Shown piece by piece: positions 16,935-58,334 of a DNA stretch of 61,579 nucleotides. The stretch is from a virus. Lineage: Duplodnaviria > Caudoviricetes. Within the stretch, counting starts at the first letter, position 1, and each line of letters starts with the position of its first letter. Location of the stretch: positions 1 through 61,579 of the IMG/VR virus record IMGVR_UViG_3300031965_000028; one strand, 5' to 3'. The translations under genes were made by a program, and so were the position numbers. Below the pieces are notes generated by a model. The model ran no database searches. It was not told the DNA's origin and saw nothing but the letters and a program-made list of their open reading frames with translations.

Positions 16935-17747
16935 GTGCAACTGCAGCTCGAAGTCACGGCGGTATGCAATGCCGAATGCGTATTTTGCCCCTATCCGACC
17001 ATGAAGCGGCCAAAGGGCACGATGGGTATGACATTGTTCCGCCGTATTATCGACGAGGCTACTACCATTCCCATCATCGATCATATCACTCTTACCGGCC
17101 TCGGGGAAACGCTCCTGGATCGCTTCGTGGTTGACCGTATCCGTTACATCCGTTCCGTGATGCCCGCCGTAATGATCGACCTCTATACCAATGGGACCTT
17201 CCTGCGCCCCAAGATGGTCGATGCTCTTTACTCCGCTGGTCTTTCCGTCCTGTATGTATCTCTTAACGCCGTTACTCGCGACAAGCGCCTGCAGGTCATG
17301 AAGCTGGATGACTTCGACCAGGTGGTGGAGTACATCGAATATGCGATGACCAAGCCCAACTGGAAAGTCGTTGTCAAGGGGATAGTCACCAAGGATTTGA
17401 TGGAGCAGGGAGATAATGAGGAGTTCGCCCGCCGCTGGGGGGGCTCCTATAATGCTGGTGGCAATGCCTTCCTTCACCTGGAGGGCAATTGGGCGGGTGC
17501 GATGTGGCCCATGCGCCTTAAGATGGACGAGCCCTGCGGCCGTGCGCTTAACCAGCTCATGGTACTATGGGACGGCAGAGTAAGCCTGTGTTGCTTCGAT
17601 AGTGAAGGCGAGGAGATTCTAGGGAATCTTAATCATCAAACCTTGCGAGAAATGTACAACGGGGGGCGCGCACTAGAGATCCGTACCGCCCACATCGAGG
17701 GCAGACGACAGGAAATAGGGATATGTGCTAACTGCACCGGAATCTGA
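16935..17747 (+). CDS. Radical SAM protein with SPASM/twitch domain
   Basis: CNAECVFC (CxxxCxxC), GLGETLL, TNG, C-terminal C...DGRVSLCCFD...CANC. Confidence 0.92.
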   Translation: MQLQLEVTAVCNAECVFCPYPTMKRPKGTMGMTLFRRIIDEATTIPIIDHITLTGLGETLLDRFVVDRIRYIRSVMPAVMIDLYTNGTFLRPKMVDALYSAGLSVLYVSLNAVTRDKRLQVMKLDDFDQVVEYIEYAMTKPNWKVVVKGIVTKDLMEQGDNEEFARRWGGSYNAGGNAFLHLEGNWAGAMWPMRLKMDEPCGRALNQLMVLWDGRVSLCCFDSEGEEILGNLNHQTLREMYNGGRALEIRTAHIEGRRQEIGICANCTGI

Positions 17748-17749
17748 CA

Positions 17750-18316
17750 GTGCCCGTATACACCCCCGCCTCTCGTCTGTATGGCCCGTACGCCGGTAAA
17801 GACAACCTCAATCTGGGGTGCGCCTTGAACCACGAGTCGGGCTTTACTAACCTGGATTGTGATGAACGCGCCTGCCCCGATGTCATTCACGATCTCGAGG
17901 TAACCCCTCTCCCATTCCCTGACTCTTCGTTTGATCTAGTCCTCGGCCCTCATGTCTTCGAGCACATCCGCAACATCATTCCGCTTGTCGCTGATATCCA
18001 CCGTATCTTGCGTCCAGGCGGCTACCTTGTCGCCGTCGTCCCTCATGCTGGCTGCGATTCTGCCTGGGACTCTCCCGCCCATGTCCGCTCCTTTACTGCA
18101 GCTACCTGGACTTACTTCGACCGGCGTACCTACGAGAAGGACCATAGCACTCACGGGGCGTGGCAGGGGGCGCTATACCGGGACTGGGATATCATCGGCA
18201 TCATGCTGATCCCCCACAAGGAGTTTACAGGGGATCCGCAGGTGGAGACAAAGGCGCGGCACTGGAGAAACGTTATCAACGAAATTCATGTAACGCTAAA
18301 GGCGGTGAAGCAGTGA
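17750..18316 (+). CDS. Class I SAM-dependent methyltransferase (Methyltransf_11-like)
   Basis: LNLGC, LPFPDSSFD, HVFEH, IHRILRPGG. Confidence 0.9.
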   Translation: MPVYTPASRLYGPYAGKDNLNLGCALNHESGFTNLDCDERACPDVIHDLEVTPLPFPDSSFDLVLGPHVFEHIRNIIPLVADIHRILRPGGYLVAVVPHAGCDSAWDSPAHVRSFTAATWTYFDRRTYEKDHSTHGAWQGALYRDWDIIGIMLIPHKEFTGDPQVETKARHWRNVINEIHVTLKAVKQ

Positions 18317-18996
18317 AAATGGTGGCCAATCGGACAGCGGAGAGTGTGAACCGGGAAATAAACGCGGCCAGGGCCGCTGGTACCCCGATTGAGCTTCCCT
18401 CTGCCCGAGAGTTTGCTCCTCGATCCGCTCGTGGGTTCGGTGATCGAGTAGAGCGTACTTTTAGCCCATTCCTGGGCAAGGATAACCTTAGCCTCGGATG
18501 TGCGCTCAATCATGAACCAGGGTTCACCAACCTGGACTGTGACTCTCGTGCACGCCCGGATGTCCTCCACAATATGGAGGTCACCCCGCTTCCCTTCCCT
18601 GATAATTCCTTCGACTGCGTACTAGCCAGCCACTCGCTGGAGCACGTCCTCAATCTCATTCCTCTTGTCGCTGACGTTCACCGTATCCTGCGCCCCAACG
18701 GTTATTTCCTCGCTGTTACTCCTCACGCTGCCTGCAATATGGCATGGGATTCTCCGCACCACGTTCGGGGATTCACCGAGGGCACCTGGGTTTACTTTCA
18801 GCGCAGCACGTACGAGAATGTTCACGCAGGCTATGGGGCCTATCAGGGCGGCGACTACCGGGACTGGAATATCATCCAGATTGCCCTGGTCCCGTTCCCC
18901 GAGTTCCGTGATGATCCCGATCTCGATTACAAAGTAAAGCATCTTCGTAACGTCGTTCACGAGGTCCAGGCGGTTCTCCAGGCCGTCAAGAAGTAA
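18313..18996 (+). CDS. Class I SAM-dependent methyltransferase, tandem paralog
   Basis: LSLGCALNHEPGFTNLDCD, LPFPDNSFD, HSLEH, VHRILRPNG; GTG start overlapping upstream stop. Confidence 0.9.
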   Translation: MKMVANRTAESVNREINAARAAGTPIELPSAREFAPRSARGFGDRVERTFSPFLGKDNLSLGCALNHEPGFTNLDCDSRARPDVLHNMEVTPLPFPDNSFDCVLASHSLEHVLNLIPLVADVHRILRPNGYFLAVTPHAACNMAWDSPHHVRGFTEGTWVYFQRSTYENVHAGYGAYQGGDYRDWNIIQIALVPFPEFRDDPDLDYKVKHLRNVVHEVQAVLQAVKK

Positions 18997-20276: not shown

Positions 20277-20921
20277 ATGACAAACGGAGAGATAAAGACG
20301 GAGGTGCTGAGACGCCTCCGTGAATCTTCCTCTACTCCTACCTTCTGGTCCGACCGTGACATCTCTGCCTCCATCCATCAGGCGTATGCCGAGATCTCCG
20401 ATGCCTCCGAGTGGAATGAGCAGCAGGAGGTAATATCGCTACCCTCCAACAACATTCCCGTCTTCGACATCCGCCAGTTCACTACCCAGGAATTTCTAGT
20501 TGCCGGTCCCGCCTACAACTCTATCACTTCCCGTTGGCTGCAGCCGGGCTCCATACGGGAGTTCGATCTATACGACCGGGCGTGGGAGACGCGAGTAGGG
20601 GAGGTAGAATATGCGCTGGTTCGAGGGCTGTGGTGGCTAACCTACTGGCCGTTCGATACCGGCTCCATTACTCAGTATTACATCGCGGTACCAGATCGAA
20701 TGACGGCAGATGCGGATGAACCGGGATTCCCGGAGGAATACCACTACGGGCTGGTCGAGTATGCCATTTTCGACCTGTGGGCGCAGGATGGAGAGGCGGA
20801 CCTGGCGTACGCTGCGTGGCGGGAATACCTGAAGTACGAGGCGGGGCTGACCGCGTGGGTTAACGGCCGCATCGGGGTTCCCAAGATTACCGGCAATCGG
20901 CAATCGGCCTTCGGATCGTAA
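20277..20921 (+). CDS. Head-tail adaptor (tail tubular protein A-like)
   Basis: MT.GEIK.EVLRRL...WSD.DI...I.QAY; D.PGFPEEYHYGLVEYA. Confidence 0.75.
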   Translation: MTNGEIKTEVLRRLRESSSTPTFWSDRDISASIHQAYAEISDASEWNEQQEVISLPSNNIPVFDIRQFTTQEFLVAGPAYNSITSRWLQPGSIREFDLYDRAWETRVGEVEYALVRGLWWLTYWPFDTGSITQYYIAVPDRMTADADEPGFPEEYHYGLVEYAIFDLWAQDGEADLAYAAWREYLKYEAGLTAWVNGRIGVPKITGNRQSAFGS

Positions 20922-39969: not shown

Positions 39970-40461
39970 CTACCGCTCCCGGTCCATGTCTATATCGTCT
40001 ATCAGCCGCCCCACCTCTTTTGCCCAATCTTCCGAACATTCTTCGTAAATGGCATCAAGTACCCCCTCGGCCGCACGGTCTGCATGACTTCCTACCCCGT
40101 AGCGGTTGATAAAGGTGTAAGCCTCGATCAGATCGGCAAGGCGGAACACCTTGTAGGCAGGCTCGCTGATCATAGTTGCCATCGCATCCTGTAGCAACCA
40201 TGGACAGAAAACGGCAGAATTGGGGATGGTAATCTTGTTCTTGGCCGGAGTGGGAATATCGCCGGTACGAGACTCGTCCGCATCGTGGCACAGGACGTGG
40301 AGGACTGCTTCGAGAGGAAAAGGAGTAGAGGTACGGGCAGCGAGTTCGAGGGCGATAACCAACACCCGAAATACGTGGTCTGATACCGTCTGTTGTTTCA
40401 GGGTAGGCACAATCGTCCATCTTGGAACTATTGATAAAGCTAGTAAGTCTGTTAGTCGCAC
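39970..40461 (-). CDS. datZ: HD-domain dATP triphosphohydrolase (DatZ-like, YfbR fold)
   Basis: RWTIVPT..QTVSDHVFRV...HDADESRTGDIPTPAK...ADLIEA; linked to purZ. Confidence 0.85.
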   Translation of the reverse strand: MRLTDLLALSIVPRWTIVPTLKQQTVSDHVFRVLVIALELAARTSTPFPLEAVLHVLCHDADESRTGDIPTPAKNKITIPNSAVFCPWLLQDAMATMISEPAYKVFRLADLIEAYTFINRYGVGSHADRAAEGVLDAIYEECSEDWAKEVGRLIDDIDMDRER

Positions 40462-41506: not shown

Positions 41507-44137
41507 CTAATCCTTGAGCTTCCCCCAAGACTGTGCGAACGATCCGCTTGATTTGACTGGGACCCGTAGCTTGGTAACATCGGTCATACCTCTTAGGATA
41601 ATGGGGGCTACATCCTCCCCCAGCCCTTCCAGTATCTCGAACATCAGACTATCGTGGATCTGCACGATAAACCTTACTGCCTTCCCATAGTCCCACAGTT
41701 GCTCCCACAGCCATCCCATGGTCCGTTGTAGCATTCCCTGTGCTCCGCCCTGGATCTTGTGCGAGTGCGTCTGCCGCTGTGCCTCCCACCTCTCCCACTT
41801 GTCCTCACTGAAGATCGCCGGTAGATACCGCTGCATCCCCCAGCGGTCCTTGATTACCCCTCCCGCTCTCCGGCACTCCTCATGGCACCCGGTCATATAG
41901 GTCTGAACCCCCGGATATAGCTTGAACCATTCTTTCCTCAGCTTGGCTACTCCGTTTAAATCCCATCCCTCGCACCCGGCCATGCGCAGCTGGTCCAGCA
42001 GTCCCTGGTCCTGTATTCCCGTGATGACCCCGAATCCTGCCCGCTTGCTAGGATACCGGTGCTTCATCTTATGCACCTGATCGTACGGGACCCCGAAGAT
42101 CTTGGAGGCGGTATCGGTATGGATGTCGATCTTGCCATCGTTGAATAGTCGTACCAGCCGTTCATCCCTGCTCTCGTCCGCCATGACCCGCATCTCGGCC
42201 TGATCCAGGTCTGCTTCGAACAGCTCGTACCCCTCTTCGGCCCGGTAACAGTCTCGCACCGACTTGCCTAGTTCGTTACGCACCGGAATAGCAAGGAGGG
42301 GAGCACTGGGGCGGTCATCGAAGGCGGTAGCAGAGAAGCGACCGGAGGAGACGCGGGTAATTTTAAGGTCGCACACCACGCGAGTCGAGGCTAGCTTTTC
42401 CGGCCAATTCTCTAGCACCGGGTCCACAAACGAGTCCCGTACTTTCTGGTGCTCTCTCCATTGTTCTATCTGCTCGATAGCCTCGTCCTCGAATCGCAGG
42501 TGCTCTATGGACTTCTTGCTCGTGCTCATTTTGCCGGTCGATGTCTTCTTCTCCCCTCTGAGCCCGCGCCTCCGCATTAACGTTGCCACCTGATCGGAAG
42601 ATGCTGGGTTGAACGGTCGTCCTTGGAAGTAATTCCTAGAGATCCCATCCCGTATTAACCCCATCTTCTCCGTCATCTCTTCGCCTAGCTTCTCGAAGGA
42701 CGCGCGATCGCCGGTAATCCCGTTGATCTTCATGCTCACCGCAGCGGGCAGCATGCGCATCTTCATAGTCATCAGCGAGTCCAGCCCAGCAGCGGAGATG
42801 GCGGCCTTCATCTTGGGATACAGGCGGAGGTTGGCATCGGGATCGCGGCCAGCGTAGTAGACGGCATCAGCTAGAGGGATATCGGCCAGAGTGCCGATGG
42901 GAAACGCGCCTAAATCCTTCTCTACTATTACTCGCAGCTCTCTGTCCACCTTCTTCCAGCGCTTGTGGGGGTCGGTCCTCCTTCCCTCTTTGTCCAGCTT
43001 CTCCGAGTAGTAATCTACTAGGATCGCTTCAGCCCTGCGCTGGACCGGCTGAGGAGTATACAAGTGCGCGCTACCGTCATTCTCGTGCTCTACTCGCGCT
43101 TCCGGCTTCCCCCACTTTCCCTCCATCACCCTTTCTAGATACCCCAGCTGCTTCTCCAGCCCCGCCTGCCCCACCGTCTCCGCGTAGTCCTTCATCACCA
43201 TTCCGCAGTGGCGGCGGGCGAGGTTCTTGAGGGACTGTGGCTCGACGCACAATAGATACGCCGCCATCATGGTATCGAAGATATCCACCTCGATGTCGTA
43301 GAGGAAATCGAGGCCCAGCCCTAGGCACATCTCGAAGTCATAGAGAGCAGGATGGACCACCAGCACCGGCTTCTTCTTCTCCAGCTTCTCTCGGAGCAGT
43401 GCGATGGCGCGAGAGAAGCGCGGGTGCCCCTTGCGCAAAACGAGGCCGGTTCCGGGGGCTACGGAGACTTGGACCGACCATTCGGAGCCCGGTACTCCCT
43501 CGGTGTCCAGCCCGACCGCACCTCCAGCCGCGCCCTCCTCCATCCCGCCCAGATACCAGTCGAAATTGCTGTCATCCAGGTCGAAGTACTGAGGCTTAGG
43601 ATGTAGGTCTATAGGAGGATCTACCGGTAGCTTGCCTTTAATTGCGGCAGCGGCACGCGCGTAGTCCCAGGTGACGAGCGGTAGAAGATCCTGATTATAG
43701 AAGGGGCTTGCAGGATGGTAGCAGGGGAGGATGGTAGCATCATAGCCAGCACCGTCCGACCAGCGGTGAGGAATGCCGTGGATGGCCTCCAGGTAGGCGG
43801 ACTCACCAAGGAAGAAGCGAGTAGAGAGAGCCCCAGCGGTGATGATGAACTTGGGCTTGATCTTGCGCAGCTCCGCTAATAGTACCGGCCCCCACTTGGC
43901 TACATCCTCGGGTTCGGGATAAGGGTTCCCCTGCCGGTACTCCTTCATCAGGTTTGTGAGCCAGCCGTCACGCCGGTCCAGCCCATTCCGCTCCAGGTGC
44001 GCATCCTGAGCCTGACCAGTGCGGCCTACGAACGGACGGCGACGGTGCGCCTCTTCCTCGCCCGGTGCTTCCCCTACTATGGCCCACCGCGCCTTGGGGT
44101 TGCCTTCGCCCGGAACGATAATACCAGTAGCGGCCAC
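41507..44137 (-). CDS. polA: Family A DNA polymerase with N-terminal UDG-family (SPO1-type) domain; candidate Z-selective polymerase
   Basis: GEAPG..E....PFVG..G and YHPA (UDG); LDTE/LYD/YAGRD exo motifs; DLDQAEMR, RYPSKRAGFG, QIHDSL. Confidence 0.93.
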   Translation of the reverse strand: MAATGIIVPGEGNPKARWAIVGEAPGEEEAHRRRPFVGRTGQAQDAHLERNGLDRRDGWLTNLMKEYRQGNPYPEPEDVAKWGPVLLAELRKIKPKFIITAGALSTRFFLGESAYLEAIHGIPHRWSDGAGYDATILPCYHPASPFYNQDLLPLVTWDYARAAAAIKGKLPVDPPIDLHPKPQYFDLDDSNFDWYLGGMEEGAAGGAVGLDTEGVPGSEWSVQVSVAPGTGLVLRKGHPRFSRAIALLREKLEKKKPVLVVHPALYDFEMCLGLGLDFLYDIEVDIFDTMMAAYLLCVEPQSLKNLARRHCGMVMKDYAETVGQAGLEKQLGYLERVMEGKWGKPEARVEHENDGSAHLYTPQPVQRRAEAILVDYYSEKLDKEGRRTDPHKRWKKVDRELRVIVEKDLGAFPIGTLADIPLADAVYYAGRDPDANLRLYPKMKAAISAAGLDSLMTMKMRMLPAAVSMKINGITGDRASFEKLGEEMTEKMGLIRDGISRNYFQGRPFNPASSDQVATLMRRRGLRGEKKTSTGKMSTSKKSIEHLRFEDEAIEQIEQWREHQKVRDSFVDPVLENWPEKLASTRVVCDLKITRVSSGRFSATAFDDRPSAPLLAIPVRNELGKSVRDCYRAEEGYELFEADLDQAEMRVMADESRDERLVRLFNDGKIDIHTDTASKIFGVPYDQVHKMKHRYPSKRAGFGVITGIQDQGLLDQLRMAGCEGWDLNGVAKLRKEWFKLYPGVQTYMTGCHEECRRAGGVIKDRWGMQRYLPAIFSEDKWERWEAQRQTHSHKIQGGAQGMLQRTMGWLWEQLWDYGKAVRFIVQIHDSLMFEILEGLGEDVAPIILRGMTDVTKLRVPVKSSGSFAQSWGKLKD

Positions 44138-44814
44138 TAATAGTCCTTGCCGGTTGACCGGTTGATATTACCAATGGTCTCTTGTGCTAAGCCCTGTGTC
44201 GCACCTGTTCGCGCTTCCCGGTCCTGCTCCGTCGTGCGCTCATACCCCATCACGAATATCGCGTTTAATACCACCCCTGCTGCATCATCATCGATCAGAG
44301 CAAGCGGCGGAGGAACATTCGGACCGCGCATCCGGTCGCGGATCAGCAGCAGGTGTTCGATGGCGTGGTTGATGCGATCGAAGATGAACTCCCGGTCGCG
44401 TAATCCTTGTTGCCAGTTATCTACCCCGTACTTCTCCGCACCCAGCTCGAATCTCCGTGCGATCCGCTCCAGTGCCCACGTCGGAATAAGGTCGTAGCGC
44501 GGTTTCCGTCCGGATGAAGTAGCACCGCTGGTAAATACGTGCTTTTCGCTCGTGTTCATTCCCTTCCCCCTGTAACCATCTGGGACCTCGATACCAGTAA
44601 TCTCTCCGTGTGATCTAGGTGTAGGCACCTCTTCCTCCTTCTGATACACTACACGTTCAACCTTGATGATCTCGCTAGTGCTAAGATCAATGGTGATCGT
44701 ATCTCCAGCTTCGATATTCACCGGAGCGATCCACCCGGTCACTCTTTCCGCCTCCTGATCGCGCTCACCGCCGACTTCGCTATAGTCGGACCTATCCCCT
44801 TTATCTCCCGCCAC
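44137..44814 (-). CDS. dATP/dGTP diphosphohydrolase domain protein (DUF5664-like); true start may be downstream
   Basis: KPRYDLIP..ALERIA..FELGAEKYGVDNWQQG...HAIEHL. Confidence 0.8.
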   Translation of the reverse strand: MAGDKGDRSDYSEVGGERDQEAERVTGWIAPVNIEAGDTITIDLSTSEIIKVERVVYQKEEEVPTPRSHGEITGIEVPDGYRGKGMNTSEKHVFTSGATSSGRKPRYDLIPTWALERIARRFELGAEKYGVDNWQQGLRDREFIFDRINHAIEHLLLIRDRMRGPNVPPPLALIDDDAAGVVLNAIFVMGYERTTEQDREARTGATQGLAQETIGNINRSTGKDY

Positions 44815-45479
44815 TCTTCTACCCCCGCTTCTATCATCTCTGCCACGCTTTCAAAGTGCTTCGCCGCCGCCCATCCCCGCACATAGTCTATCGCAGGTAG
44901 CCCCGATGCTACCTTCGCCATAATCGCCTCAACGGGATCCGCGTCCGGTGGCGCTGCCGTCTCTCCGCTCTTGTCGAACACCTGTAGCCCCCGGTGCTTA
45001 TCCCAGGGCTTCTCCAACCAGTGGTCCATGACTGCCAGCCACGTAGCTGCTTCGTTGAGGTCGTATACTTGCTTGACCCGAAGCGGCGTAAGCATCTGAG
45101 CAGTAAGGAGGAACCCCTCGAGGTATGAGTATGGGACCGGCCTCCGCCCCAGCTTATATTGTTTCCACAGCTTCCCGCGTCGAACCTGAAGATTGTTATC
45201 AGGTCCGGACCGGTGCACGCCGTAGTATAGAAGGAAGCTATAGTCATAAGCAGCCAGCATTCGAGGAATCTGAGTTGCACCTAGCCGTCCGGTGGAGATA
45301 GAGGATAGGAGATCCGATAATGACTTGACCTCTACCCCAACCGTAATCACCGAGCTATCGGGACCGCAGCCAGTAAGCATGACATCGGCCGAGTCCAGCG
45401 TCACTAATTGACACCGGCCGTCGAGCGCAGGCATGTCGGCCAGATCCCTGCTACCTGCGCGAGAATCAACGAGAATCAC
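44739..45479 (-). CDS. ERCC4/XPF-family nuclease with HhH (resolvase candidate)
   Basis: ILVDSR, GVEVKSLSDLLSSI..GRL..Q, IKGIGPTIA. Confidence 0.85.
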   Translation of the reverse strand: MILVDSRAGSRDLADMPALDGRCQLVTLDSADVMLTGCGPDSSVITVGVEVKSLSDLLSSISTGRLGATQIPRMLAAYDYSFLLYYGVHRSGPDNNLQVRRGKLWKQYKLGRRPVPYSYLEGFLLTAQMLTPLRVKQVYDLNEAATWLAVMDHWLEKPWDKHRGLQVFDKSGETAAPPDADPVEAIMAKVASGLPAIDYVRGWAAAKHFESVAEMIEAGVEEWREIKGIGPTIAKSAVSAIRRRKE

Positions 45480-45701: not shown

Positions 45702-46976
45702 CTACACCTTGCGGTCGAGCGTGTGGCAATCCTCGGGACCGAAGCTGACCAGCCGTACTGAAGCCCTGCACCACTCCTCTAGCTGCCTGGTATATTCCTG
45801 CTGGTCCGCCGTCCACTCTCGGGGCAAGGTAAACCAGCTCTCCGGCCACACGTAATTGGCGAAGGTGAGTGCTACCCACGCCGGTCGTATCTGCCGTGCT
45901 GCCGTTTCTACCGTTTCCCGGTCCAGCCGCGCGATTCGCCTCAGCTTCTTTGTTACCGTGGTCAGCTCGAACAACGTCGATAGCTCCTTAACCGTCGCCT
46001 CGGGCAGCGACATCAGCGCCGTCTTGTGAACCTCGGATAGCGCGGCCTGATAGTTGAGGCGGTCTGCCGCAGACCAGCGGTGCTGGTTGAGATGGGACCA
46101 GTTGGCCGGTCCATCGAAATTCTTTCCTGCCTCCACTACCGCTTCCTCGAACGATGCTATGGCACCCTCGCGGAGTAGCGGCGGCAAACCCGCCCTGTCG
46201 CGAAGAGCATTCATCTCCCGCGCCAGCTCCGGCCAGCTAGTCTCCTGTGGCATCGGGCCAGAGTTTCCAGCAACGCGGATGGGATAGGTGCGGACTACCA
46301 TGCAGATCTCGGTTGGCAACGCGGGACTCAATCCACACTCCAACATCCACTGTGCCGGTCCCGTCTGCTTGTGGGTGGTGTAGGGGTAAGGGCCGAGATA
46401 CAGGTCGAGCAACTGTCCCTGGGTACCTTCGAGCAGAATCTTCGCGCCCTCGTTCCAGCTATAGTTCAGCAGCGCCTCAGTGTCACACACGTCGTAGCCG
46501 TCGCTTTCGTGGGTGTCTCCAAATTGCTGGTAGCCTAGTCCTCGGCCCGTGATTCTTTCGACCAGCGCTTCACTCGCACCTTTGCCCGTCGCACCGATAG
46601 CATGGTGACGACCAGAGTCTTTGCTGCGGGCTGCGTGGTACGGACGGTGAATGCCTGCGCGGCGGTCGATGGAAAGGCGCTCGCGGATGTCGGTGCCGGT
46701 CAGAGCGGAGATTTCACGGACCTCACGATCAAGGATAGTAGGATCAATCAGGGCACCAGCGCCAATCACCAGCCGCGTATCCGGGTTCACCCATCCAACC
46801 GGTAATTGCTGGTTCACGTAGCGGGAGCCATTGTAGTAGACCGAATGGCCAGCGTTGACTGCGCCTGTCCGCACTGCTATGTCCATCCGCTCCTTCTTGC
46901 ACAGGTAGCCCGCCACGAGCCCCTTACTTTCCGAACCGAACTGGCCTCCCTGCACGATAATTATCGGATTGCCCAT
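45702..46976 (-). CDS. purZ: N6-succino-2-amino-dAMP synthetase (PurZ family)
   Basis: PurA fold with GGQFGSESKG (Ser for catalytic Asp), NAGH, EGTQG, RTYPIRVAGNSGP, ELTTVTKKLRRI. Confidence 0.92.
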   Translation of the reverse strand: MGNPIIIVQGGQFGSESKGLVAGYLCKKERMDIAVRTGAVNAGHSVYYNGSRYVNQQLPVGWVNPDTRLVIGAGALIDPTILDREVREISALTGTDIRERLSIDRRAGIHRPYHAARSKDSGRHHAIGATGKGASEALVERITGRGLGYQQFGDTHESDGYDVCDTEALLNYSWNEGAKILLEGTQGQLLDLYLGPYPYTTHKQTGPAQWMLECGLSPALPTEICMVVRTYPIRVAGNSGPMPQETSWPELAREMNALRDRAGLPPLLREGAIASFEEAVVEAGKNFDGPANWSHLNQHRWSAADRLNYQAALSEVHKTALMSLPEATVKELSTLFELTTVTKKLRRIARLDRETVETAARQIRPAWVALTFANYVWPESWFTLPREWTADQQEYTRQLEEWCRASVRLVSFGPEDCHTLDRKV

Positions 46977-46978
46977 CT

Positions 46979-47437
46979 CTAATCCTTCGGGTCGGCTTGC
47001 GCCCGTAAATTAAGACGCCGAATCTCCGCGTGGATGGTTTCCTTGTAGCGCGGATCTCGGGCCTTAGTGTTAAATGGTTTGCCTTTTCTACTTCTATTGG
47101 TCTCCGCAACAGTAAGGTATTCCAACAGCAGCTCAGCCTGTCTTTTCTTTAATACTAACCACGGTATAACAATGGGCAACCATGTCTTTAAATCCTCGGC
47201 CGACATTCTCCAAGTATACTGCCTTCGGTTGCGAGGGCCTCTGCGTCTATGGACATACACTCTAGTGATGCCTGTCTTCTCAATCAGAGCATCTGATAGT
47301 CTAGAGTCCGTATTGGCGATGGATACTACAGGACGGAATGTGTTAGCGTTATGTTTGCGTCGGTCGATCAACATTACACTACCTTCTCCGTCTATAAGTG
47401 CAGCAAGCCACGCGGCGGTAGTTTTGGGGACTCTCAT
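46979..47437 (-). CDS. LAGLIDADG homing endonuclease (leaderless start MRVPK)
   Basis: AWLAALIDGEGSV, ANTD, PWLVLKKRQAEL. Confidence 0.88.
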   Translation of the reverse strand: MRVPKTTAAWLAALIDGEGSVMLIDRRKHNANTFRPVVSIANTDSRLSDALIEKTGITRVYVHRRRGPRNRRQYTWRMSAEDLKTWLPIVIPWLVLKKRQAELLLEYLTVAETNRSRKGKPFNTKARDPRYKETIHAEIRRLNLRAQADPKD

Positions 47438-47443
47438 GTCCAG

Positions 47444-47473
47444 ATTGTAACACACCTATGGGTGTGGCTGCAA
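47444..47473 (-). promoter_or_regulatory. sigma-70-type promoter TTGCAG-N18-TACAAT
   Basis: TG-extended -10, 6 nt upstream of ATG. Confidence 0.6.
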
Positions 47474-49557: not shown

Positions 49558-50301
49558 CTACACCTCTTCCAGTCTTCCGTTGCACCATAATCGCAGCTCT
49601 CCCTCGTCCTCCAGCTCCCAGTTCCGCGCTCTCCTTCTCGCTATCTCGCACTGCTCCTTATCCCGGTCGAACCCCAGCCATGGTCGCCCCACTACGGCGG
49701 CAGACACGAGCGTAGAGCCGCTGCCACAGAAGGGGTCAAGGATGGTATCGCCTTCCTTCGACAACAGGGAAACAAGAAACGTTGTTAGTTCTATCGGCTT
49801 CTGCGCCGTGTGCAGCTTGTCCATCTGCGCCACCTTGTCGCACACCAGGATGTTAGAGTATATCGCCCGCCGCTCCGAGTTCCACGTGTGACGGGCTCCG
49901 GGTGCGGCGAACCACAGGATGTGAGTGCACAGGGAGCCGAAGTTCCGCGCCCTTGGCTTACCGGCGTTCCACATCACCATCAGCTCGGCCATCCATATGA
50001 ACCCGGCGTCCTCCATCGCTACCATCCACGCGGCGGTCGCATGCACCCCGGCCATTACCACTGTTGCCCCGCCTTTCCTCAGCACCCGCTTGAACTGGGT
50101 AGCATAGGGCCGCGCCCACTCTACGGCGGAGGAGGAAGAGGAGACGGAGGGAGCCCATGGATCGCTACCTACCCCGCCCTCATCGCGGCTTATGCCGGTA
50201 AAGAAGGGAGGGTCGCTGATAATGGCTCCTATGCTATTGTCTGGTAATCTAGAGAGCAGGTAAAGCGAGTCACCGCGCGTTACTCGATTGAGAGAGGTCA
50301 C
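49558..50301 (-). CDS. Beta-class amino-DNA methyltransferase (N6A/N4C)
   Basis: ISDPPF (motif IV) ... HTAQKP ... ILDPFCGSGST (motif I). Confidence 0.92.
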   Translation of the reverse strand: MTSLNRVTRGDSLYLLSRLPDNSIGAIISDPPFFTGISRDEGGVGSDPWAPSVSSSSSAVEWARPYATQFKRVLRKGGATVVMAGVHATAAWMVAMEDAGFIWMAELMVMWNAGKPRARNFGSLCTHILWFAAPGARHTWNSERRAIYSNILVCDKVAQMDKLHTAQKPIELTTFLVSLLSKEGDTILDPFCGSGSTLVSAAVVGRPWLGFDRDKEQCEIARRRARNWELEDEGELRLWCNGRLEEV

Positions 50302-52371: not shown

Positions 52372-52868
52372 TTCCTTCGTCGGTTAATCCTTGCTATCAT
52401 TGTAGTTGAGACTTCGTACTTACGTGCTAGTACGTTGCCTGCTTCCCCTGTCGCCAACCTACTCCTAATATCTAGTACCTCTAGCTCCGTTAGCTTACCA
52501 CCACCGCCATTGGCTTCACCCCTTGCTGTACGTCCTTTATTACACTTATCTCGTACATTATCTATACTGGTACCAAGGAATAGGTGCTTAGGGTTGCAGC
52601 ACGGAGGACTATCACACCGATGTAGTACTTGTCTTTTCGGCCAATACCCTCGTGTTACTCTCCAGGCGATTCGATGTGCTCGTCGAAGGTATTTGCGGCC
52701 TAGAGCGCGTATAGTAAGAGTGCCGTACCCGTCCCTATCCGTACGCGCCGTCCATGGCCAACATTCGTCCGGCCCCCGTATATCAACGTGTAGCCAGAAT
52801 CGCTCGGATAGACTCATGTTTCTACTTCCGTGAAGCTCCTTACCCGCCGAATCGAAGAGCGAAACCAC
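52356..52868 (-). CDS. HNH endonuclease with C-terminal HTH
   Basis: ECWPW, AHRIAW, VLHRCDSPPCCNPKHLFLGT..DN..D. Confidence 0.9.
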   Translation of the reverse strand: MVSLFDSAGKELHGSRNMSLSERFWLHVDIRGPDECWPWTARTDRDGYGTLTIRALGRKYLRRAHRIAWRVTRGYWPKRQVLHRCDSPPCCNPKHLFLGTSIDNVRDKCNKGRTARGEANGGGGKLTELEVLDIRSRLATGEAGNVLARKYEVSTTMIARINRRRNWAWL

Positions 52869-55282
52869 TTAGGCATCAGGTTTTTGTTCTTAGCAAAGAA
52901 CCAATACCAGTGGTCATCGATTATATAAGTGCGGCAAAAGTCATCCTCGCTGCGCATCCCTCGTCCTGACCGCTGGATCAACTCTACTATTGTTACATAA
53001 TCGAGATACCTCTTATCCGCCTTGTGCCGCGCCTTGATCACCGCTGGCCGCGAGTCGATGAATGGCATCTTTGCTATTATCTGGAACCGCGCTTCCGATT
53101 GCGGGAAATCCCATCCCGTCCCTACGCTGGGACTCACCAGCACTGCCGGAGGTCGCGCTGCTTTAAACGCCGCTACCGTATCCCGCATGCTACGTCGGTC
53201 GTGCACGTAGATAATGCTACTGAAGCGGCTGCGGGATTGGATCAGCTTCATCTGGGCGTAGCTCATCGTGAACACAATCCCCTTGCTTCCCTTCCCTTCT
53301 CCTCCTTCTACCGCCTCCTTCTGGACGATTTGGTCAATCCTGTTCAACCAGATCTTCTCCTCTCCTAGTGTCATGTTGCGCCCAACTTTGACGGTAGGAA
53401 TGGTGTAGATCGGACGACGGCTGCGCTTGAACGGACTAGGGTATTCCTTGTATAGGTACTGCGACGGATCTATCCCCAGGTATCCCGCATCTTTTGTCGT
53501 CACCGTGGCCGATACCAGGATCACGCGCGGGATTCCGGCGAACAAGTATTTCTCGCCATAGCCGCTTGCCCACACCGGCTGGAACGTCGCCCCGTCCTTG
53601 TTCTCCTCAATGATCCAATCAGTAGAGGCTCCCGGTACCCATGCAGGAGGGTCGGGGGCATCCGTCCGCTTCCACATCTTCGCTCCTGCCAGTCCCGCCA
53701 GATTCGTCTCCAGCTCATTTAATCTCCGTACCACCGTGATTGAGTGCCGGTACATAGAGACTTGGGTCTTGGCTGACTCCACTCGCGCCCGACATACAGG
53801 GAGCGCCTCAGTATCAGCCCAATGTACCCACTCCTCTATAGGCACTCCTCGGGGAACCTCTAGTCCCAGTAGCGCCTTTACTTCCTTCGCCACTATCTCA
53901 ATCTTCACGAACTCCGCCAGCGATTCGGCTGCATCGTGCGCCTCATCCAGGATAAGAGTATCAAACTTTCCTAAGGATTGCTGCACTGCCGCGTACCGGT
54001 TCATCGTCATCCAGTAGGAGTAATTGGTTACCACTAACCGGGATTTGCTGGCGCGACGGAGCGCGTCATAATAGTTACAACCACCTTCGCGGAGCTCGCA
54101 CTCGATCCCGGCGTGACAGGGACCTTCATCGCAGCCGGGAAGGATTCTCCGTCCCTCTTCCTCGAAGTACAGGCACGGGTAGTTGTTTTGTCCTTTAACC
54201 TCGACCAGCCCCATCTCCGAGAAGTCGCCCATGAGTTGCTGCTGCAGCCCCTTGGTCTGGGTTAGAGCGAGCGTGCGTCCTCCCACCATGGCCGCTACCG
54301 CCATGTAGATGGTAGACTTGCCGCAGTTGTGTACAACGATCCCATTTGCCAGGAAGTTTCTGTGCGGATCGGTGCACATCAGGTCGTACGTCCTCTCCAT
54401 CTTGAACTTGGCAACGCTCTTTACTCTTACTTCCGTTGGCAACACCTGTAGCTTGTCTCCGGGTCGATGTAGACGAAGGTGATCGGCGCACGACAACACA
54501 TCCAGATTATCCGGATGGTTATTTAGATGGTTGTTATCCTTGTGGTGAACATGGAACTCATCAGGGTCTATGAATTGTAAGCACTTAGCTAAATCTGGGT
54601 CAGTTCTACAAATTCGTACGAAATCCAGCACAGATAGCCCGTTCAGCCTAGCCTCAGCCACTACGCGGTGGAACTCAATTTTTCCTCGTACTCGCTCCGG
54701 TCCTCGTTTGTGTCCACGACGGCGGTCGTATCCCGAGCGATAGCTAATGCGACTGTGTGCAAATGGATGGAATACTAGCCCCTGAATCGTACTGTATACC
54801 CTCTTCGGACTTCGTAATCCACTGTAAGGAATTGACCCGTCGCAAACTACTATACTAGACTTGCGCAGGTTGACTAGTGGGGTAAAGCCTTCGGTAGTTA
54901 GGATCTCGTGGTCCGGGGTAGCTCGCAGCTTCCTGCCATCCTCCAGTACCAACTCATACGTAAGCTTTACCCCACTATATACCACCTCGCTAACTTCGTG
55001 TAGACCAATCCTGTCCCCTAGGAGGCTTCTCGTAAAGGTTGGATAGTCGCGCCTGAGTACATTATTCTGATTGGTAAACTCACGCTCGATTGAGTACTTC
55101 TTCGATGCCTTAAGCCGTCCACCTCTAGCTACGGTTATTACTGTATCATGCGACACACAGCCGGGAGGAGCATTGATGATGGTGAAGCGGCGCTCATTGC
55201 AGGCAGCCGAGATTACCGCATCGAGCTGGCGCGGTCGCCACTCAGCGAATTTCGGAGGTAGGCCCAGATCAGTAGGATTCAC
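52814..55282 (-). CDS. DinG/XPD-family SF2 helicase containing an intein
   Basis: Q motif WRPRQ, Walker A APPG/CGKS split by intein, Fe-S Cys cluster, ILDEAH, SAT, GWDFP, QRSGRGMRSEDD. Confidence 0.9.
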   Translation of the reverse strand: MNPTDLGLPPKFAEWRPRQLDAVISAACNERRFTIINAPPGCVSHDTVITVARGGRLKASKKYSIEREFTNQNNVLRRDYPTFTRSLLGDRIGLHEVSEVVYSGVKLTYELVLEDGRKLRATPDHEILTTEGFTPLVNLRKSSIVVCDGSIPYSGLRSPKRVYSTIQGLVFHPFAHSRISYRSGYDRRRGHKRGPERVRGKIEFHRVVAEARLNGLSVLDFVRICRTDPDLAKCLQFIDPDEFHVHHKDNNHLNNHPDNLDVLSCADHLRLHRPGDKLQVLPTEVRVKSVAKFKMERTYDLMCTDPHRNFLANGIVVHNCGKSTIYMAVAAMVGGRTLALTQTKGLQQQLMGDFSEMGLVEVKGQNNYPCLYFEEEGRRILPGCDEGPCHAGIECELREGGCNYYDALRRASKSRLVVTNYSYWMTMNRYAAVQQSLGKFDTLILDEAHDAAESLAEFVKIEIVAKEVKALLGLEVPRGVPIEEWVHWADTEALPVCRARVESAKTQVSMYRHSITVVRRLNELETNLAGLAGAKMWKRTDAPDPPAWVPGASTDWIIEENKDGATFQPVWASGYGEKYLFAGIPRVILVSATVTTKDAGYLGIDPSQYLYKEYPSPFKRSRRPIYTIPTVKVGRNMTLGEEKIWLNRIDQIVQKEAVEGGEGKGSKGIVFTMSYAQMKLIQSRSRFSSIIYVHDRRSMRDTVAAFKAARPPAVLVSPSVGTGWDFPQSEARFQIIAKMPFIDSRPAVIKARHKADKRYLDYVTIVELIQRSGRGMRSEDDFCRTYIIDDHWYWFFAKNKNLMPKWFRSSIRRVRSFTEVET
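54326..55159 (-). mobile_element. Intein (278 aa) with HNH endonuclease, in helicase Walker A
   Basis: Begins CVSHDT, block B LRATPDHEILT, ends NFLANGIVVHN|C; VHHKDNNHLNNHPDNL. Confidence 0.93.
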
Positions 55283-57143: not shown

Positions 57144-58193
57144 TCAGACATCGCAACCGGGCGTACCGGGTCGCCGAAATGGCCCATACGGAACATGACA
57201 TCCGTGACTTACAAGGAACCCCATGAACCGCTTGTAATCCCTATCCGGCATACCAAATAAGCGCACCACGCACCTGTACTGTCCATGCGTCGCAATCAGC
57301 CCCCGTTGAATAAGCATCCTAATATCCTGCCGCACGAGATCACGATCTCGATAGAGCGGATACGCATGTGTCCAGAACGATTGTCCCGGAGTAGTGACCG
57401 CAGCATAAAGTGTATTGGTAAGATGCTGCCGCCGATCCTGTTGCGGCTGTAACTCGGACGACGGTAGCGCTGCCTCGATGTGCTCGATATCAATAACCGT
57501 GTCTGACGCGGCCCACCGTGCACACGTGATGACGTGTTCCAACTCTCGGACATTGCCCGGCCACGCGTACTGTGCCAGGCGCGCGCGTGCGGCCTGCGTG
57601 ATGATCATCGGCTCTGCTATACGAGCAAGGAAATGATCGATCAGGAGTGGAATGTCGGCCCGGCGTTCCCGTAGCGGAGGCACGGCTACCTCAAGCACTC
57701 GCAGTCGATACATCAGGTCGGCCCGGAAGGAGCCTGCTGCGACCATACCGGGTAGATTGCGATGCGTGGCCGCAATCACGCGGGCATCTACTCGCGAAAC
57801 CGTATCCGATCCTACGGGCTGGATCTCCCCGCTTTCCAGGAAACGCAGGAGCGCCGCTTGCATGCGCGGCCCCATCTCCCCGATCTCATCCAGAAAGACG
57901 GTGCCCTGATGAGCTGTCCGCAATTTTCCAGGTCGTTCACGATCAGCGCCGGTGAAGCTACCCCTCAGGTGTCCGAACAACTCCGACTCAAGGAGCGCGT
58001 CCGTCAAGGCCGCACAATTTACAGGTATAAACGCGCGGGCGTGCCGCTTCGACGTCACATGTACGCGGCGAGCGATCAAGTCCTTGCCTACGCCGGTTTC
58101 CCCGGTAATAAGAATCTTGTCGTCGCCAGCGGCCATGCGGTCCACGGATTGTAGTAGCGACTGCGTAGCGTGTGCACCAATGAATACCGGCAT
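57144..58193 (-). CDS. sigma-54-dependent enhancer-binding protein (AAA+ plus divergent Fis-type HTH), no N-terminal sensor domain; start likely MPVFIG
   Basis: ITGETGVGKD, VNCAAL, ESELFGH, GSFTGA, FLDEIGEM, FRADLMYRL, WPGNVREL. Confidence 0.93.
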   Translation of the reverse strand: MPVFIGAHATQSLLQSVDRMAAGDDKILITGETGVGKDLIARRVHVTSKRHARAFIPVNCAALTDALLESELFGHLRGSFTGADRERPGKLRTAHQGTVFLDEIGEMGPRMQAALLRFLESGEIQPVGSDTVSRVDARVIAATHRNLPGMVAAGSFRADLMYRLRVLEVAVPPLRERRADIPLLIDHFLARIAEPMIITQAARARLAQYAWPGNVRELEHVITCARWAASDTVIDIEHIEAALPSSELQPQQDRRQHLTNTLYAAVTTPGQSFWTHAYPLYRDRDLVRQDIRMLIQRGLIATHGQYRCVVRLFGMPDRDYKRFMGFLVSHGCHVPYGPFRRPGTPGCDV

Positions 58194-58334
58194 TGGACTT
58201 ATAGCGCGGCTTTGTGCCGTTATCACAAGAACATCCTTTTGATTAACATGAACGCCCCTAGCAGGAGCGCCCATAAACCTAGTGATATAGCGACGACGGC
58301 CAGAAACGCTGGCCGTCGCCACCTGAACTCGAGA

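What the first reader, a model, noticed from the sequence alone, without database searches (positions are those of the whole stretch)
45702..46976. PurZ with hybrid PurZ0/PurZ signature (GSESKG with TFAN)
Seen: N-terminal GGQFGSESKG and phosphate-donor specificity motif T-F-A-N-Y (45855-45866), plus a long helical insertion between NSGP and ELTTVT giving 424 aa. Known (from recollection): PurA and GTP-using PurZ0 have TxxD and PurZ0 has GSExKG, while ATP-using PurZ has GSTGKG and NFxN. Inference: an evolutionary intermediate, PurZ0-like scaffold possibly switched to ATP/dATP.
Basis: partly seen in the sequence, partly recalled or inferred. Interest (0 to 1): 0.7.

Follow-up and report, generated by a model that had tools for sequence, protein, structure and literature searches.

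The report
Third PurZ lineage with helical insert
An uncultivated phage carries an intact PurZ-type enzyme, which starts synthesis of the DNA base 2-aminoadenine, from a large unstudied branch of the family that has an extra helical domain and a mixed energy-donor motif, so which nucleotide powers it must be measured.

Summary
ORF 45702-46976 encodes a 424-aa Ser-type PurA homologue. It has GGQFGSESKG (aa 10-19), T-F-A-N-Y (aa 371-375) on the donor-base motif, and a confidently modelled helical insert of about 85 aa (aa ~250-336).

It is not a one-off hybrid. In 205 distinct long-form relatives, 192 carry Asn at this position and 171 read TFxN. No cultivated phage searched has the long form.

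In a careful tree the long-insert clade is monophyletic (99/99). It is separate from canonical PurZ (100/96) and from the clade that holds PurZ0 (96/86). Its position between them is unresolved: AU p = 0.27 for joining PurZ and 0.35 for joining the PurZ0 side. "Evolutionary intermediate" is therefore not shown.

Asp and Asn flip repeatedly inside the clade. The window's nearest sisters carry Asp.

Four of five donor-base contacts match ATP-using PurZ, and only Thr371 does not, so ATP/dATP is the likelier donor (about 0.6). No member of this clade has been assayed.

Neighbouring genes are a DatZ-like HD hydrolase, DUF5664 and a UDG-PolA fusion, with no dUTPase. This fits a 2-aminoadenine DNA module of the PurZ type. 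I class it as a new variant of a known kind, of moderate interest.

The parts
45702..46976 (-). PurZ-type (Ser-type PurA homologue) gene, 424 aa, long-insert lineage
   Evidence: ORF. PF00709 E 1.5e-41. Below the curated cut-offs of both NCBIfam PurZ (197 of 300 bits) and archaeal PurA (213 of 368 bits). AF2 model pLDDT 96.3. Foldseek top hits are 5k7x, 6tnh/6fko, 7vf6 and 7odx.
46920..46949 (-). P-loop GGQFGSESKG; Ser15 replaces the catalytic Asp13 of PurA
   Evidence: S15 is invariant in alignment A1. Archaeal PurA at the same column has Asp.
45855..45866 (-). T371-F372-A373-N374, the donor-base motif (followed by Y375)
   Evidence: Aligned with NFCN (phiVC8/VP5), NFAQ (S-2L), SMAD (Archimedes) and TKxD (archaeal PurA). 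The Asn codon is AAT.
45969..46229 (-). Clade-specific helical insert (aa ~250-336), directly upstream of the TTVTKKLRR loop
   Evidence: 87 aa against 6-14 aa in the 11 reference enzymes. Helices at 248-261, 270-284, 303-308, 310-323 and 326-332, at pLDDT 93-99 per block. No look-alike outside the family.
39970..40461 (-). DatZ-like HD phosphohydrolase
   Evidence: PHROG 7076 'dATP triphosphohydrolase' 1.7e-21. PF12917/PF13023. The best solved relative is S-2L DatZ 6zpa, E 1.4e-10.
41507..44137 (-). DNA polymerase A with 3'-5' exonuclease and an N-terminal family-4 UDG domain
   Evidence: PF00476, PF01612 and PF03167. Far below both curated DpoZ cut-offs: 77.7 of 500 and 61 of 350 bits. No isolate-phage relative above 31% identity among the 15 rows listed.
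44137..44814 (-). DUF5664 (dATP/dGTP diphosphohydrolase N-terminal domain) protein
   Evidence: PF18909 E 1.4e-9. PHROG 801.
44739..45479 (-). ERCC4/HhH nuclease, a conserved neighbour of long-form PurZ
   Evidence: PF02732 and PF12826. The same family lies beside the long-form gene in 12 of 18 IMG/VR loci.
46979..47455 (-). HNH homing-type endonuclease directly upstream of the PurZ gene
   Evidence: PHROG 5046 E 3.6e-19.

Best explanation
The gene encodes a working PurZ-type enzyme. It most likely condenses dGMP with aspartate to give N6-succino-2-amino-deoxyadenylate, the first step towards dZTP, in an uncultivated phage.

It belongs to a third large lineage of Ser-type PurA homologues, distinct from both named PurZ and PurZ0. 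The lineage is marked by a helical domain of about 85 aa inserted just before the aspartate-loop segment TTVTKKxRR, and by the signature GSE[A/S/G]KG + T-F-x-N-Y.

What is shown here: the fold, the Ser for Asp replacement, conservation of the dGMP pocket, the position of the motif, monophyly of the clade, and the gene neighbourhood.

What is inferred: because Asn374, Phe372, Tyr375 and Gly413-Pro414 match the adenine pocket of ATP/dATP-using PurZ, and the guanine-reading Asp is absent, the phosphate donor is probably ATP or dATP and not GTP. The enzyme would work with the neighbouring DatZ-like hydrolase (dATP removal), the DUF5664 protein (dGTP/dATP to monophosphates) and the phage PolA to make Z-containing DNA. 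Host enzymes would complete the steps from dSMP to dZTP.
For: Family and fold:
- PF00709.
- AF2 model pLDDT 96.3. TM-scores normalised to the target are 0.91 to Pyrococcus PurA, 0.86 to phiVC8 PurZ, 0.81 to PurZ0 and 0.83 to S-2L PurZ.

Substrate side:
- Ser15 stands in place of Asp13.
- Of the S-2L dGMP-pocket residues named in PMC8342488 (passages read), 13 are matched in the window: identical at G14, S15, N41, A42, G128, T130, Q186, Y199, T201, R234, V235 and R346, and the conservative Y21 to F13.

Donor side:
- S-2L N305/F306/Q308/G335/P336 correspond to T371/F372/N374/G413/P414.
- phiVC8 Y298 corresponds to Y375.
- The metaGPA preprint says F295 and Y298 stabilise the adenine of ATP (section 8 read).
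- Asp333 to Asn in E. coli PurA changes specificity from GTP to XTP (title only, seen in a reference list).

Clade:
- The top 120 cluster representatives are 50-66% identical over the full length. All 120 have Asn at position 374, and 117 of 120 read TFxN.
- 192 of 205 long forms have Asn.
- Clade support is 99/99.

Context:
- The DatZ-like protein's best solved relative is S-2L DatZ.
- DUF5664 and PolA are adjacent.
- No dUTPase, NDT, MazG or lyase was found among the 74 window ORFs scanned.
- A DatZ-like gene lies beside the long form in 7 of 18 IMG/VR loci, against 1 of 52 loci with short Asp-type forms.
Against: - No member of this clade has been assayed. The protein scores below the curated PurZ model cut-off (197 of 300 bits).
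- Thr371 is the PurA/PurZ0 state, not the Asn of PurZ.
- Phe372 and Tyr375 are also present in the many short GSE + TFxDY forms that keep Asp (113 of 253 sequences), so they do not mark ATP use.
- The window's nearest sisters (P0125 MFMD, P0173 TFMD; 100/98) carry Asp. One long-form Asp locus (L020) also has a DatZ-like gene. Either the donor changes easily or this residue matters less here.
- In E. coli PurA, Asp to Asn gave XTP use, not ATP use (title only).
- The PolA is not a recognised DpoZ.
- The record is about 77% complete, so missing helper genes cannot be excluded.
- The gene-family census rests on BLAST clusters named from one representative each, and on truncated loci.
Confidence: 0.6

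Rival explanations
1. One reading: the enzyme is an evolutionary intermediate on the path from GTP-using PurZ0 to ATP-using PurZ, caught with a PurZ0 scaffold and a half-converted donor motif.
For: It shares GSExKG and 'PIRVAGNSGP' with PurZ0 and the short GSE forms, and F/N/Y of the donor motif with PurZ. A tree that joins the long clade to canonical PurZ is not rejected (delta lnL 10.65, AU p 0.272).
Against: - The long clade is a separate, well-supported branch (99/99) with its own insert, which canonical PurZ lacks.
- Canonical PurZ has its own GSE + NFxN basal relative, vB_BpsS-140 (100/96), and its own G[TW]SG..YPD loop, absent here.
- Joining the long clade to the PurZ0 side costs less likelihood (delta lnL 3.37, p 0.346). 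FastTree nests it there.
- Asp/Asn changes at least 9 times on the tree, so a shared Asn need not be inherited.
Confidence: 0.15
2. The enzyme still uses GTP/dGTP, or is unselective among purine NTPs. On this reading Asn374 is a tolerated variant of Asp and does not define the donor.
For: - Asp and Asn alternate between very close relatives. There are 5 independent pairs on starred branches in the long clade, and the window's sisters have Asp.
- Thr371 is the PurA/PurZ0 state.
- The Asp-type long-form locus L020 keeps the same DatZ/PolA/ERCC4 neighbourhood.
Against: - Asn is held in 192 of 205 long forms.
- The flips are accompanied by a P-loop change. Gly17 goes with Asp in 12 of 13 sequences, and Ala is the commonest residue at 17 with Asn, at 75% (the window has Ser). 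The change goes the same way in a mean of 4.8 of 5 independent pairs and never the opposite way, with p 0.0625, the floor for 5 pairs. This looks like coordinated adaptation, not drift.
- An amide at this site conflicts with guanine's 2-amino group according to the S-2L structure paper.
- The same replacement removes GTP preference in E. coli PurA (title only).
Confidence: 0.22
3. It is an ordinary auxiliary purA (AMP synthesis from IMP) and has nothing to do with 2-aminoadenine.
For: The best sequence match among solved structures is archaeal PurA (5k7x, E 2.4e-44), and the top NCBIfam hit is the archaeal PurA model.
Against: - The catalytic Asp13 is replaced by Ser, as in all phage PurZ/PurZ0 sequences (PMC12884076, section 24 read).
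- The score is below the PurA model cut-off (213 of 368 bits).
- True archaeal PurA forms a separate 100/100 clade.
- A DatZ-like gene and DUF5664 lie nearby.
Confidence: 0.03

Closest known systems
PurZ (succino-amino-deoxyadenylate synthase, also DgsS) of Vibrio phage phiVC8/VP5 and cyanophage S-2L (PDB 6FM1, 7ODX)
   Same: - Same fold (TMt 0.83-0.86).
- Ser in place of Asp13 and a conserved dGMP pocket.
- Donor-pocket F, amide (N/Q), Y and G-P are matched.
- A DatZ-type hydrolase lies in the neighbourhood.
   Different: - About 24% identity in the structural alignment.
- P-loop GSESKG, not GSTGKG.
- Thr, not Asn, at the first motif position.
- 'AGNSGP', not the G[TW]SG..YPD loop.
- An 87-aa helical insert.
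- No MazZ/DUF550 found.
- Below the curated HMM cut-off.
- Outside the PurZ clade (100/96).
[quoted passage not shown]
   Same: GSE-type P-loop, a 'PIRVAGNSGP' segment and Thr/Ser at the first motif position. phmmer E 6.7e-35.
   Different: - PurZ0 has [ST]MxD[QT], with the guanine-reading Asp and no Phe/Tyr. The window has TFANY.
- PurZ0 has no insert.
- PurZ0 phages carry DutZ/DmtZ (PMC12884076). The window has a DatZ-like gene and no dUTPase among the ORFs scanned.
- The window lies outside the PurZ0 clade (100/100).
- That PurZ0 uses GTP is recalled from Tong et al. 2023, which is not held.
Archaeal short PurA (Pyrococcus horikoshii, PDB 5K7X/2D7U)
   Same: Best sequence and structure match (E 2.4e-44; TMt 0.91), with the same compact core.
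   Different: PurA has GDEGKG (Asp13) and TKxD. It has no insert and forms a separate 100/100 clade.
Bacillus phage vB_BpsS-140 'PurA' (MH884512)
   Same: It is the only isolate-phage enzyme among the 11 reference enzymes fetched that combines a GSE-type P-loop with an Asn-type donor motif (GSEGKG + NFANY).
   Different: It has a 14-aa loop, not an 87-aa insert. It groups with canonical PurZ (100/96), not with the window's clade. tblastn gives 34% identity over 63% of the query.

Membership tests
PurZ-type (Ser-type) adenylosuccinate-synthetase homologues | PF00709 fold | tested here: met
   E 1.5e-41; Foldseek E 1e-23 to 1e-31 to PurA/PurZ/PurZ0 structures.
PurZ-type (Ser-type) adenylosuccinate-synthetase homologues | Catalytic Asp13 of PurA replaced by Ser, with dGMP-pocket residues kept | tested here: met
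   S15 is present. 13 S-2L pocket residues are matched (12 identical, plus Y21 to F13); S131 to A129 and C204 to T200 differ, and R146 aligns one column off R145.
PurZ-type (Ser-type) adenylosuccinate-synthetase homologues | dGMP + Asp to dSMP activity | not testable with these tools
   Needs an enzyme assay.
Canonical PurZ (NCBIfam NF038379; phiVC8/S-2L clade) | Score above the curated model cut-off | tested here: not met
   197.4 bits against a cut-off of 300.
Canonical PurZ (NCBIfam NF038379; phiVC8/S-2L clade) | GSTGKG P-loop and N-F-x-[N/Q]-Y donor motif | tested here: not met
   The window reads GSESKG and T-F-A-N-Y. F, N and Y match; the P-loop Thr and the first Asn do not.
Canonical PurZ (NCBIfam NF038379; phiVC8/S-2L clade) | Placement inside the PurZ clade | tested here: not met
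   The PurZ clade (100/96) excludes it. A sister relation is not rejected (AU p 0.272).
Canonical PurZ (NCBIfam NF038379; phiVC8/S-2L clade) | Z-cluster neighbours DatZ + MazZ/DUF550 | tested here: inconclusive
   A DatZ-like gene is present. No MazG/DUF550 was found. DUF5664 is present instead. The record is about 77% complete.
Canonical PurZ (NCBIfam NF038379; phiVC8/S-2L clade) | ATP/dATP as phosphate donor | not testable with these tools
   Inferred only from pocket residues.
PurZ0 (Archimedes/Wayne/Ghobes clade) | GSE-type P-loop | tested here: met
   GSESKG against GSEAKG in PurZ0.
PurZ0 (Archimedes/Wayne/Ghobes clade) | Guanine-reading Asp in [S/T]-M-x-D | tested here: not met
   N374 stands at the Asp column and F372 at the Met column.
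PurZ0 (Archimedes/Wayne/Ghobes clade) | Placement inside the PurZ0 clade | tested here: not met
   The PurZ0 clade (100/100, 7 rows) excludes it. Union with the wider 30-row clade is not rejected (p 0.346).
PurZ0 (Archimedes/Wayne/Ghobes clade) | Co-occurrence with DutZ (dUTPase-like) and DmtZ | tested here: not met
   No PF00692 or NDT hit among the 74 window ORFs scanned, with the caveat that the record is incomplete.
PurA (archaeal type, NF003295) | Asp13 and TKxD, with a score above the cut-off | tested here: not met
   Ser15, TFAN, and 213 of 368 bits.

The most novel reading that the evidence does not exclude
The long-insert clade is a third major PurZ lineage. In it the donor-reading residue has flipped between Asp and Asn many times, each flip coupled to a P-loop change (Gly17 with Asp, Ala/Ser17 with Asn). 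On this reading the window's enzyme built an adenine (ATP/dATP) pocket on a PurZ0-like scaffold independently of canonical PurZ. The clade-specific helical domain next to the aspartate loop would add a function that no solved PurA/PurZ has, such as a lid, a regulatory site or a docking site. The clade would then be a natural series of matched GTP/ATP enzyme pairs for studying how nucleotide specificity evolves.
Probability: 0.3. Interest if true: 0.75.

Novelty: new variant of a known kind. Interest (0 to 1): 0.55.

Why it matters
Published work on Z-DNA divides phage enzymes into PurZ and PurZ0, each with its own helper genes and polymerase (PMC12884076; I read passages and section 24). The window shows that the metagenomic diversity is wider.

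It represents a large, well-supported lineage with no cultivated member in the phage collection searched. This lineage has an extra domain. It combines a PurZ0-like scaffold with a mostly PurZ-like donor pocket and with PurZ-type helpers (DatZ-like, DUF5664).

Within the lineage, close relatives differ at the single residue thought to read the donor base. Expressing a few natural pairs would test directly what sets GTP against ATP use in this family, and whether the donor switch happened once or several times.

It also gives a marker (GSExKG + TFxNY + insert) for finding probable Z-DNA phages that the curated PurZ model misses.

Tried and rejected
- The single-sequence AlphaFold model was useless (pLDDT 32). 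It was replaced by the alignment-based model.
- The search for related loci with the single protein found no relative in IMG/VR. The alignment query did.
- Tong et al. 2023 (Nat Microbiol), the PurZ0 paper, is not held. Its claims are cited from recall and from what two other papers say of it.
I searched other terms instead. The paper searches that included PurZ or PurZ0 returned no paper whose title or abstract describes a long-insert PurZ or a TFxN motif. Of these I read only passages and sections of PMC12884076, PMC8342488 and the metaGPA preprint. Supplements of the bioRxiv preprint (its PurZ alignment and table) could not be seen and may include members of this clade.
- I looked for relatives of the insert alone. 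The Atlas returned only adenylosuccinate-synthetase clusters, and other structure rows had TM under 0.5. Foldseek gave nothing beyond the family.
- I searched for close PolA relatives to test for DpoZ. None reached 31% identity among the 15 rows listed.
- FastTree suggested the long clade is nested on the PurZ0 side. The careful tree left the backbone open and the two AU tests rejected neither union, so I dropped the claim of proven convergence.
- The DatZ-versus-dUTPase census was meant to test the donor state. It follows phage lineage and not Asp/Asn (L020, an Asp form, has a DatZ-like gene), so it says nothing about the donor.
- One script call returned no answer and was repeated.
- Earlier findings of this scan hold nothing on this genome or sequence.
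- Complex prediction was not used. A homodimer pass would rest on likeness to solved PurA dimers and would not bear on the donor question.
Full report
**What is there.** The finding's coordinates hold an intact ORF, but on the minus strand: 45702..46976, 424 aa, ATG start. The plus strand is closed by stops. An AAGGA lies a few bases upstream of the ATG, and the upstream HNH gene ends two bases before it.

The protein matches Pfam PF00709 (E 1.5e-41) and PHROG 1211, '2-aminooxy adenylosuccinate synthetase' (8.5e-61). The P-loop GGQFGSESKG is aa 10-19.

HMMER alignments to solved chains place 'LTFANY' opposite 'VTMLDK' of Pyrococcus PurA, 'LSMADQ' of PurZ0 (7vf6) and 'LNFCNY' of phiVC8 PurZ (6fm1). 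L-INS-i alignments with 11 annotated phage enzymes and archaeal PurA give the same register.

- Archimedes, RcigaStruga and Keanu read GSEAKG with SMAD, TMLD and TMVD.
- VP5, S-2L, Barton, PSA28, ZP6 and OH read GSTGKG with NFx[N/Q].

The window is therefore a real mosaic. It has a GSE-type P-loop and Thr at the first motif position, as in PurZ0 and PurA. It has Phe, Asn and Tyr, as in PurZ.

**The insert.** The window has 87 residues between 'AGNSGPMPQETSW' and 'ELTTVTKK', where all 11 reference enzymes have 6-14.
- With an 83-sequence alignment (A1), AlphaFold gives pLDDT 96.3 and pTM 0.93. The insert forms five helices at aa 248-332, with pLDDT 93-99 per ten-residue block. The single-sequence model was useless.
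- Foldseek matches the core to Pyrococcus PurA (TMt 0.91), phiVC8 PurZ (0.86), S-2L PurZ (0.83) and PurZ0 (0.81).
- Nothing outside the family resembles the insert.
- The insert sits directly before the TTVTKKLRR segment. By homology with E. coli PurA (my own knowledge), that segment is the aspartate-binding loop.
- Two insert positions, R306 and S314, are at least 90% conserved in A1.

**It is the signature of a clade, not a one-off.**
- The 5.8-billion-protein search gave 2252 hits at E <= 1e-10. The best 120 are all 379-455 aa and 50-66% identical, and all but four cover at least 97% of the query.
- All 120 have Asn at position 374. 117 read TFxN (TFMN 83, TFAN 17, TFLN 14, TFFN 2, TFIN 1) and 3 read MFMN. 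The 15 commonest P-loop strings, covering 113 of the 120, all read GSE[A/S]KG.
- I pooled every sequence of at least 395 aa in hand (214). Of these, 205 are long forms with Asn or Asp at 374: 192 Asn and 13 Asp, with TFxN in 171.
- No isolate phage has the long form. Of 215 matching records in the 50,697-record phage collection, the best are about 35% identical over the N-terminal 58%. The only one covering at least 80% of the query is Flavobacterium phage MaF61, at 25% identity with an 11-aa loop.
- The protein falls below both curated NCBIfam cut-offs: archaeal PurA 213 of 368 bits and PurZ 197 of 300 bits.

**Where the clade sits.** I built a careful IQ-TREE (LG+C20+F+G4 by PMSF) from 104 rows and 332 columns. 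The P-loop residues, the motif and the insert were removed from the data first. The rows were the window, 50%-identity representatives, IMG/VR and genome loci, the 11 references and archaeal PurA as outgroup. They were a stratified sample of the 253 sequences in hand.

Results:
- Archaeal PurA (GDEGKG, TKxD): 100/100.
- All Ser/Gly-type enzymes: 100/100.
- Canonical PurZ plus vB_BpsS-140 and MaF61: 100/96.
- PurZ0: 100/100, inside a 30-row clade with short GSE + TFxD forms (96/86).
- The long-insert clade: 30 rows, 99/99.

The backbone joining these groups is unresolved (under 80). FastTree on all 253 sequences had nested the long clade on the PurZ0 side. The AU tests reject neither alternative:
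- Long clade + PurZ: delta lnL 10.65, p 0.272.
- Long clade + the PurZ0-containing clade: delta lnL 3.37, p 0.346.

Both groups were named after the free tree had been seen.

The 'intermediate' reading therefore cannot be confirmed. Several points speak against a direct one:
- Canonical PurZ lacks the insert.
- Canonical PurZ has its own G[TW]SG..YPD loop.
- Canonical PurZ has its own GSE + NFxN basal relative.

**The donor position is labile.**
- On the 104-row tree, the Asp versus Asn/Gln state needs at least 9 changes.
- The six TFxD long-clade rows need 5 changes, of which starred branches force at least 4.
- The window (TFAN) is sister, at 100/98, to P0125 (MFMD) + P0173 (TFMD).
- One transition (AAT to GAT) separates the two states.
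- The flips are not isolated. Among the 205 long forms, residue 17 of the P-loop is Gly in 12 of 13 Asp-type sequences. Ala is the commonest residue there in Asn-type sequences, at 75% (the window has Ser). Trp381 is present in 91% of Asn-type sequences and 1 of 13 Asp-type sequences.
- On 5 independent pairs joined by starred branches, Gly17 goes with Asp in a mean of 4.8 and never the other way. The sign test gives p 0.0625, the floor for five pairs.
- This is suggestive, not significant. PurZ0 (Asp with GSEAKG) shows the rule is not general.
- Across the 253 sequences every combination occurs: GSE/Asp/short 113, GSE/Asn/long 76, GSE/Asp/long 13, GSE/Asn/short 6, GST/Asn 5, GST/Gln 1, GST/Asp 2, and others; 7 were incomplete.

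**Which donor?** For the acceptor side, 13 of the S-2L PurZ dGMP-pocket residues are matched in the window: 12 identical, plus the conservative Y21 to F13.

For the donor base, the S-2L paper (PMC8342488, passages read) makes three points:
- Adenine stacks on F306 and P336.
- N305, Q308 and the G335 backbone bind the 6-amino group.

The window has T371, F372, N374, G413 and P414 at these five columns, and Y375 at phiVC8 Y298. The metaGPA preprint names F295 and Y298 as stabilising the adenine of ATP (section 8 read). In E. coli PurA, Asp333 to Asn moves specificity from GTP to XTP; I saw only the title of Kang et al. 1994 in a reference list.

I infer that GTP is disfavoured and that ATP/dATP is the likely donor, at about 0.6. 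Three caveats apply:
- Phe and Tyr are also present in the Asp-bearing short forms.
- Thr371 is not the PurZ state.
- Close sisters carry Asp.

That PurZ0 uses GTP is recalled from Tong et al. 2023, which is not held. The two papers read here refer to it only indirectly.

**Neighbourhood.** The window is an IMG/VR virus record, linear, about 77% complete, with 58% GC. On the same strand as the gene lie:
- a DatZ-like HD hydrolase (PHROG 7076; best solved relative S-2L DatZ, E 1.4e-10);
- an HNH endonuclease;
- a PolA with 3'-5' exonuclease and an N-terminal family-4 UDG domain, far below both curated DpoZ cut-offs;
- a DUF5664 protein;
- an ERCC4/HhH nuclease;
- the PurZ-type gene itself;
- another HNH endonuclease.

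No dUTPase, NDT, MazG/DUF550 or lyase was found among the 74 ORFs scanned. According to PMC12884076 (passages and section 24 read), DatZ goes with PurZ phages and DutZ/DmtZ with PurZ0 phages. The helper set here is therefore of the PurZ kind, although the scaffold looks PurZ0-like.

I also made a census of 70 of the 80 IMG/VR loci. The 10 dropped had genes under 320 aa or were identical copies. Families were defined by BLAST clusters, each named from one representative.

| Family | Long-form loci (n = 18) | Short Asp-type loci (n = 52) |
|---|---|---|
| DatZ-like | 7 | 1 |
| ERCC4 | 12 | 0 |
| PolA | 11 | 40 |
| dUTPase | 5 | 30 |
| PrimPol | 1 | 23 |
| DUF5664 | 1 | 19 |

The five long-form loci with dUTPase fall in a subclade (3 NFLN, 2 TFLN), and four of them also carry a PurB-like lyase. 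This pattern follows phage lineage and not Asp/Asn. The Asp-type long form L020 also has a DatZ-like gene, so the census does not test the donor.

**Verdict.** The thing is a PurZ-type enzyme of a third, insert-bearing, so far uncultivated lineage with a conserved mixed donor motif. ATP/dATP use is likely but unproven. 'Intermediate between PurZ0 and PurZ' is not shown, and the lability of the position makes it unnecessary. I class it as a new variant of a known kind and score its interest as moderate (0.55). The natural Asp/Asn pairs make the donor question directly testable.

Noticed in passing
window 41507-44137 (-): The phage DNA polymerase A carries an N-terminal family-4 uracil-DNA glycosylase domain (PF03167 E 3e-18; NF040953 99.6 bits) fused to the exonuclease and polymerase domains. 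It is not a recognised DpoZ, and none of the 15 listed isolate-phage matches exceeds 31% identity.
   Followed up: partly
window 52814-55282 (-): The DEAD/Helicase_C_2 helicase (822 aa) appears to be interrupted by an intein with an HNH endonuclease (Intein_splicing aa 96-319; PHROG HNH aa 240-287).
   Followed up: no
window 57144-58322 (-): A phage-encoded sigma-54 activator-type AAA+ protein (PF00158 E 7e-61 with AAA_lid_14) lies in the early/replication region.
   Followed up: no
window 16935-17747 (+) and 18160-18996 (+): A radical SAM/SPASM protein and a class-I methyltransferase sit among the structural genes, near an SU10-type adaptor gene at 20277-20921.
   Followed up: no
window 49558-50301 (-): An N6/N4 DNA methyltransferase (PF01555 E 3e-27) sits in a phage predicted to replace adenine by 2-aminoadenine. 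Its target base is an open question.
   Followed up: no
L098:7995-9011 and L100:8001-9008 (genome contigs): Short Ser-type PurA homologues (GSEAKG + QFxN) lie on large MAG contigs (1.34 Mb, labelled Gammaproteobacteria; 484 kb, labelled Saccharibacteria). Their neighbours are cellular genes: Ham1 ITPase and endonuclease V beside one; transketolase, DeoC and RNase Y beside the other. L098 and its close relatives L097 and L099, with P0210, form the most basal Ser-type branch (99/96) in the careful tree; L100 was not in that tree.
   Followed up: partly
L028, L029, L030, L033 (IMG/VR loci): A subclade of the long-insert enzymes (2 NFLN, 2 TFLN) travels with a PurB-like lyase (PF00206) and a dUTPase, not with a DatZ-like gene, PolA or ERCC4. 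The same enzyme lineage is therefore paired with two different helper sets.
   Followed up: partly
proteins P0212 and P0265: These are reverse hybrids: a GSTGKG P-loop (PurZ-like) with a TFADY donor motif (Asp kept) and no insert. They are nested among short GSE + TFxD forms.
   Followed up: no
long-clade alignment, window aa 17 and 381: P-loop residue 17 (Gly with Asp374, Ala/Ser with Asn374) and Trp381 co-vary with the Asp/Asn state across independent sister pairs. No mechanism is proposed.
   Followed up: partly
window 44137-44814 (-), aa 35-84: The N-terminal part of the DUF5664 protein gives weak matches to ubiquitin chains in the PDB (E 1.8e-4 to 8e-4, no stretch passing on its own). This is probably chance.
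   Followed up: no
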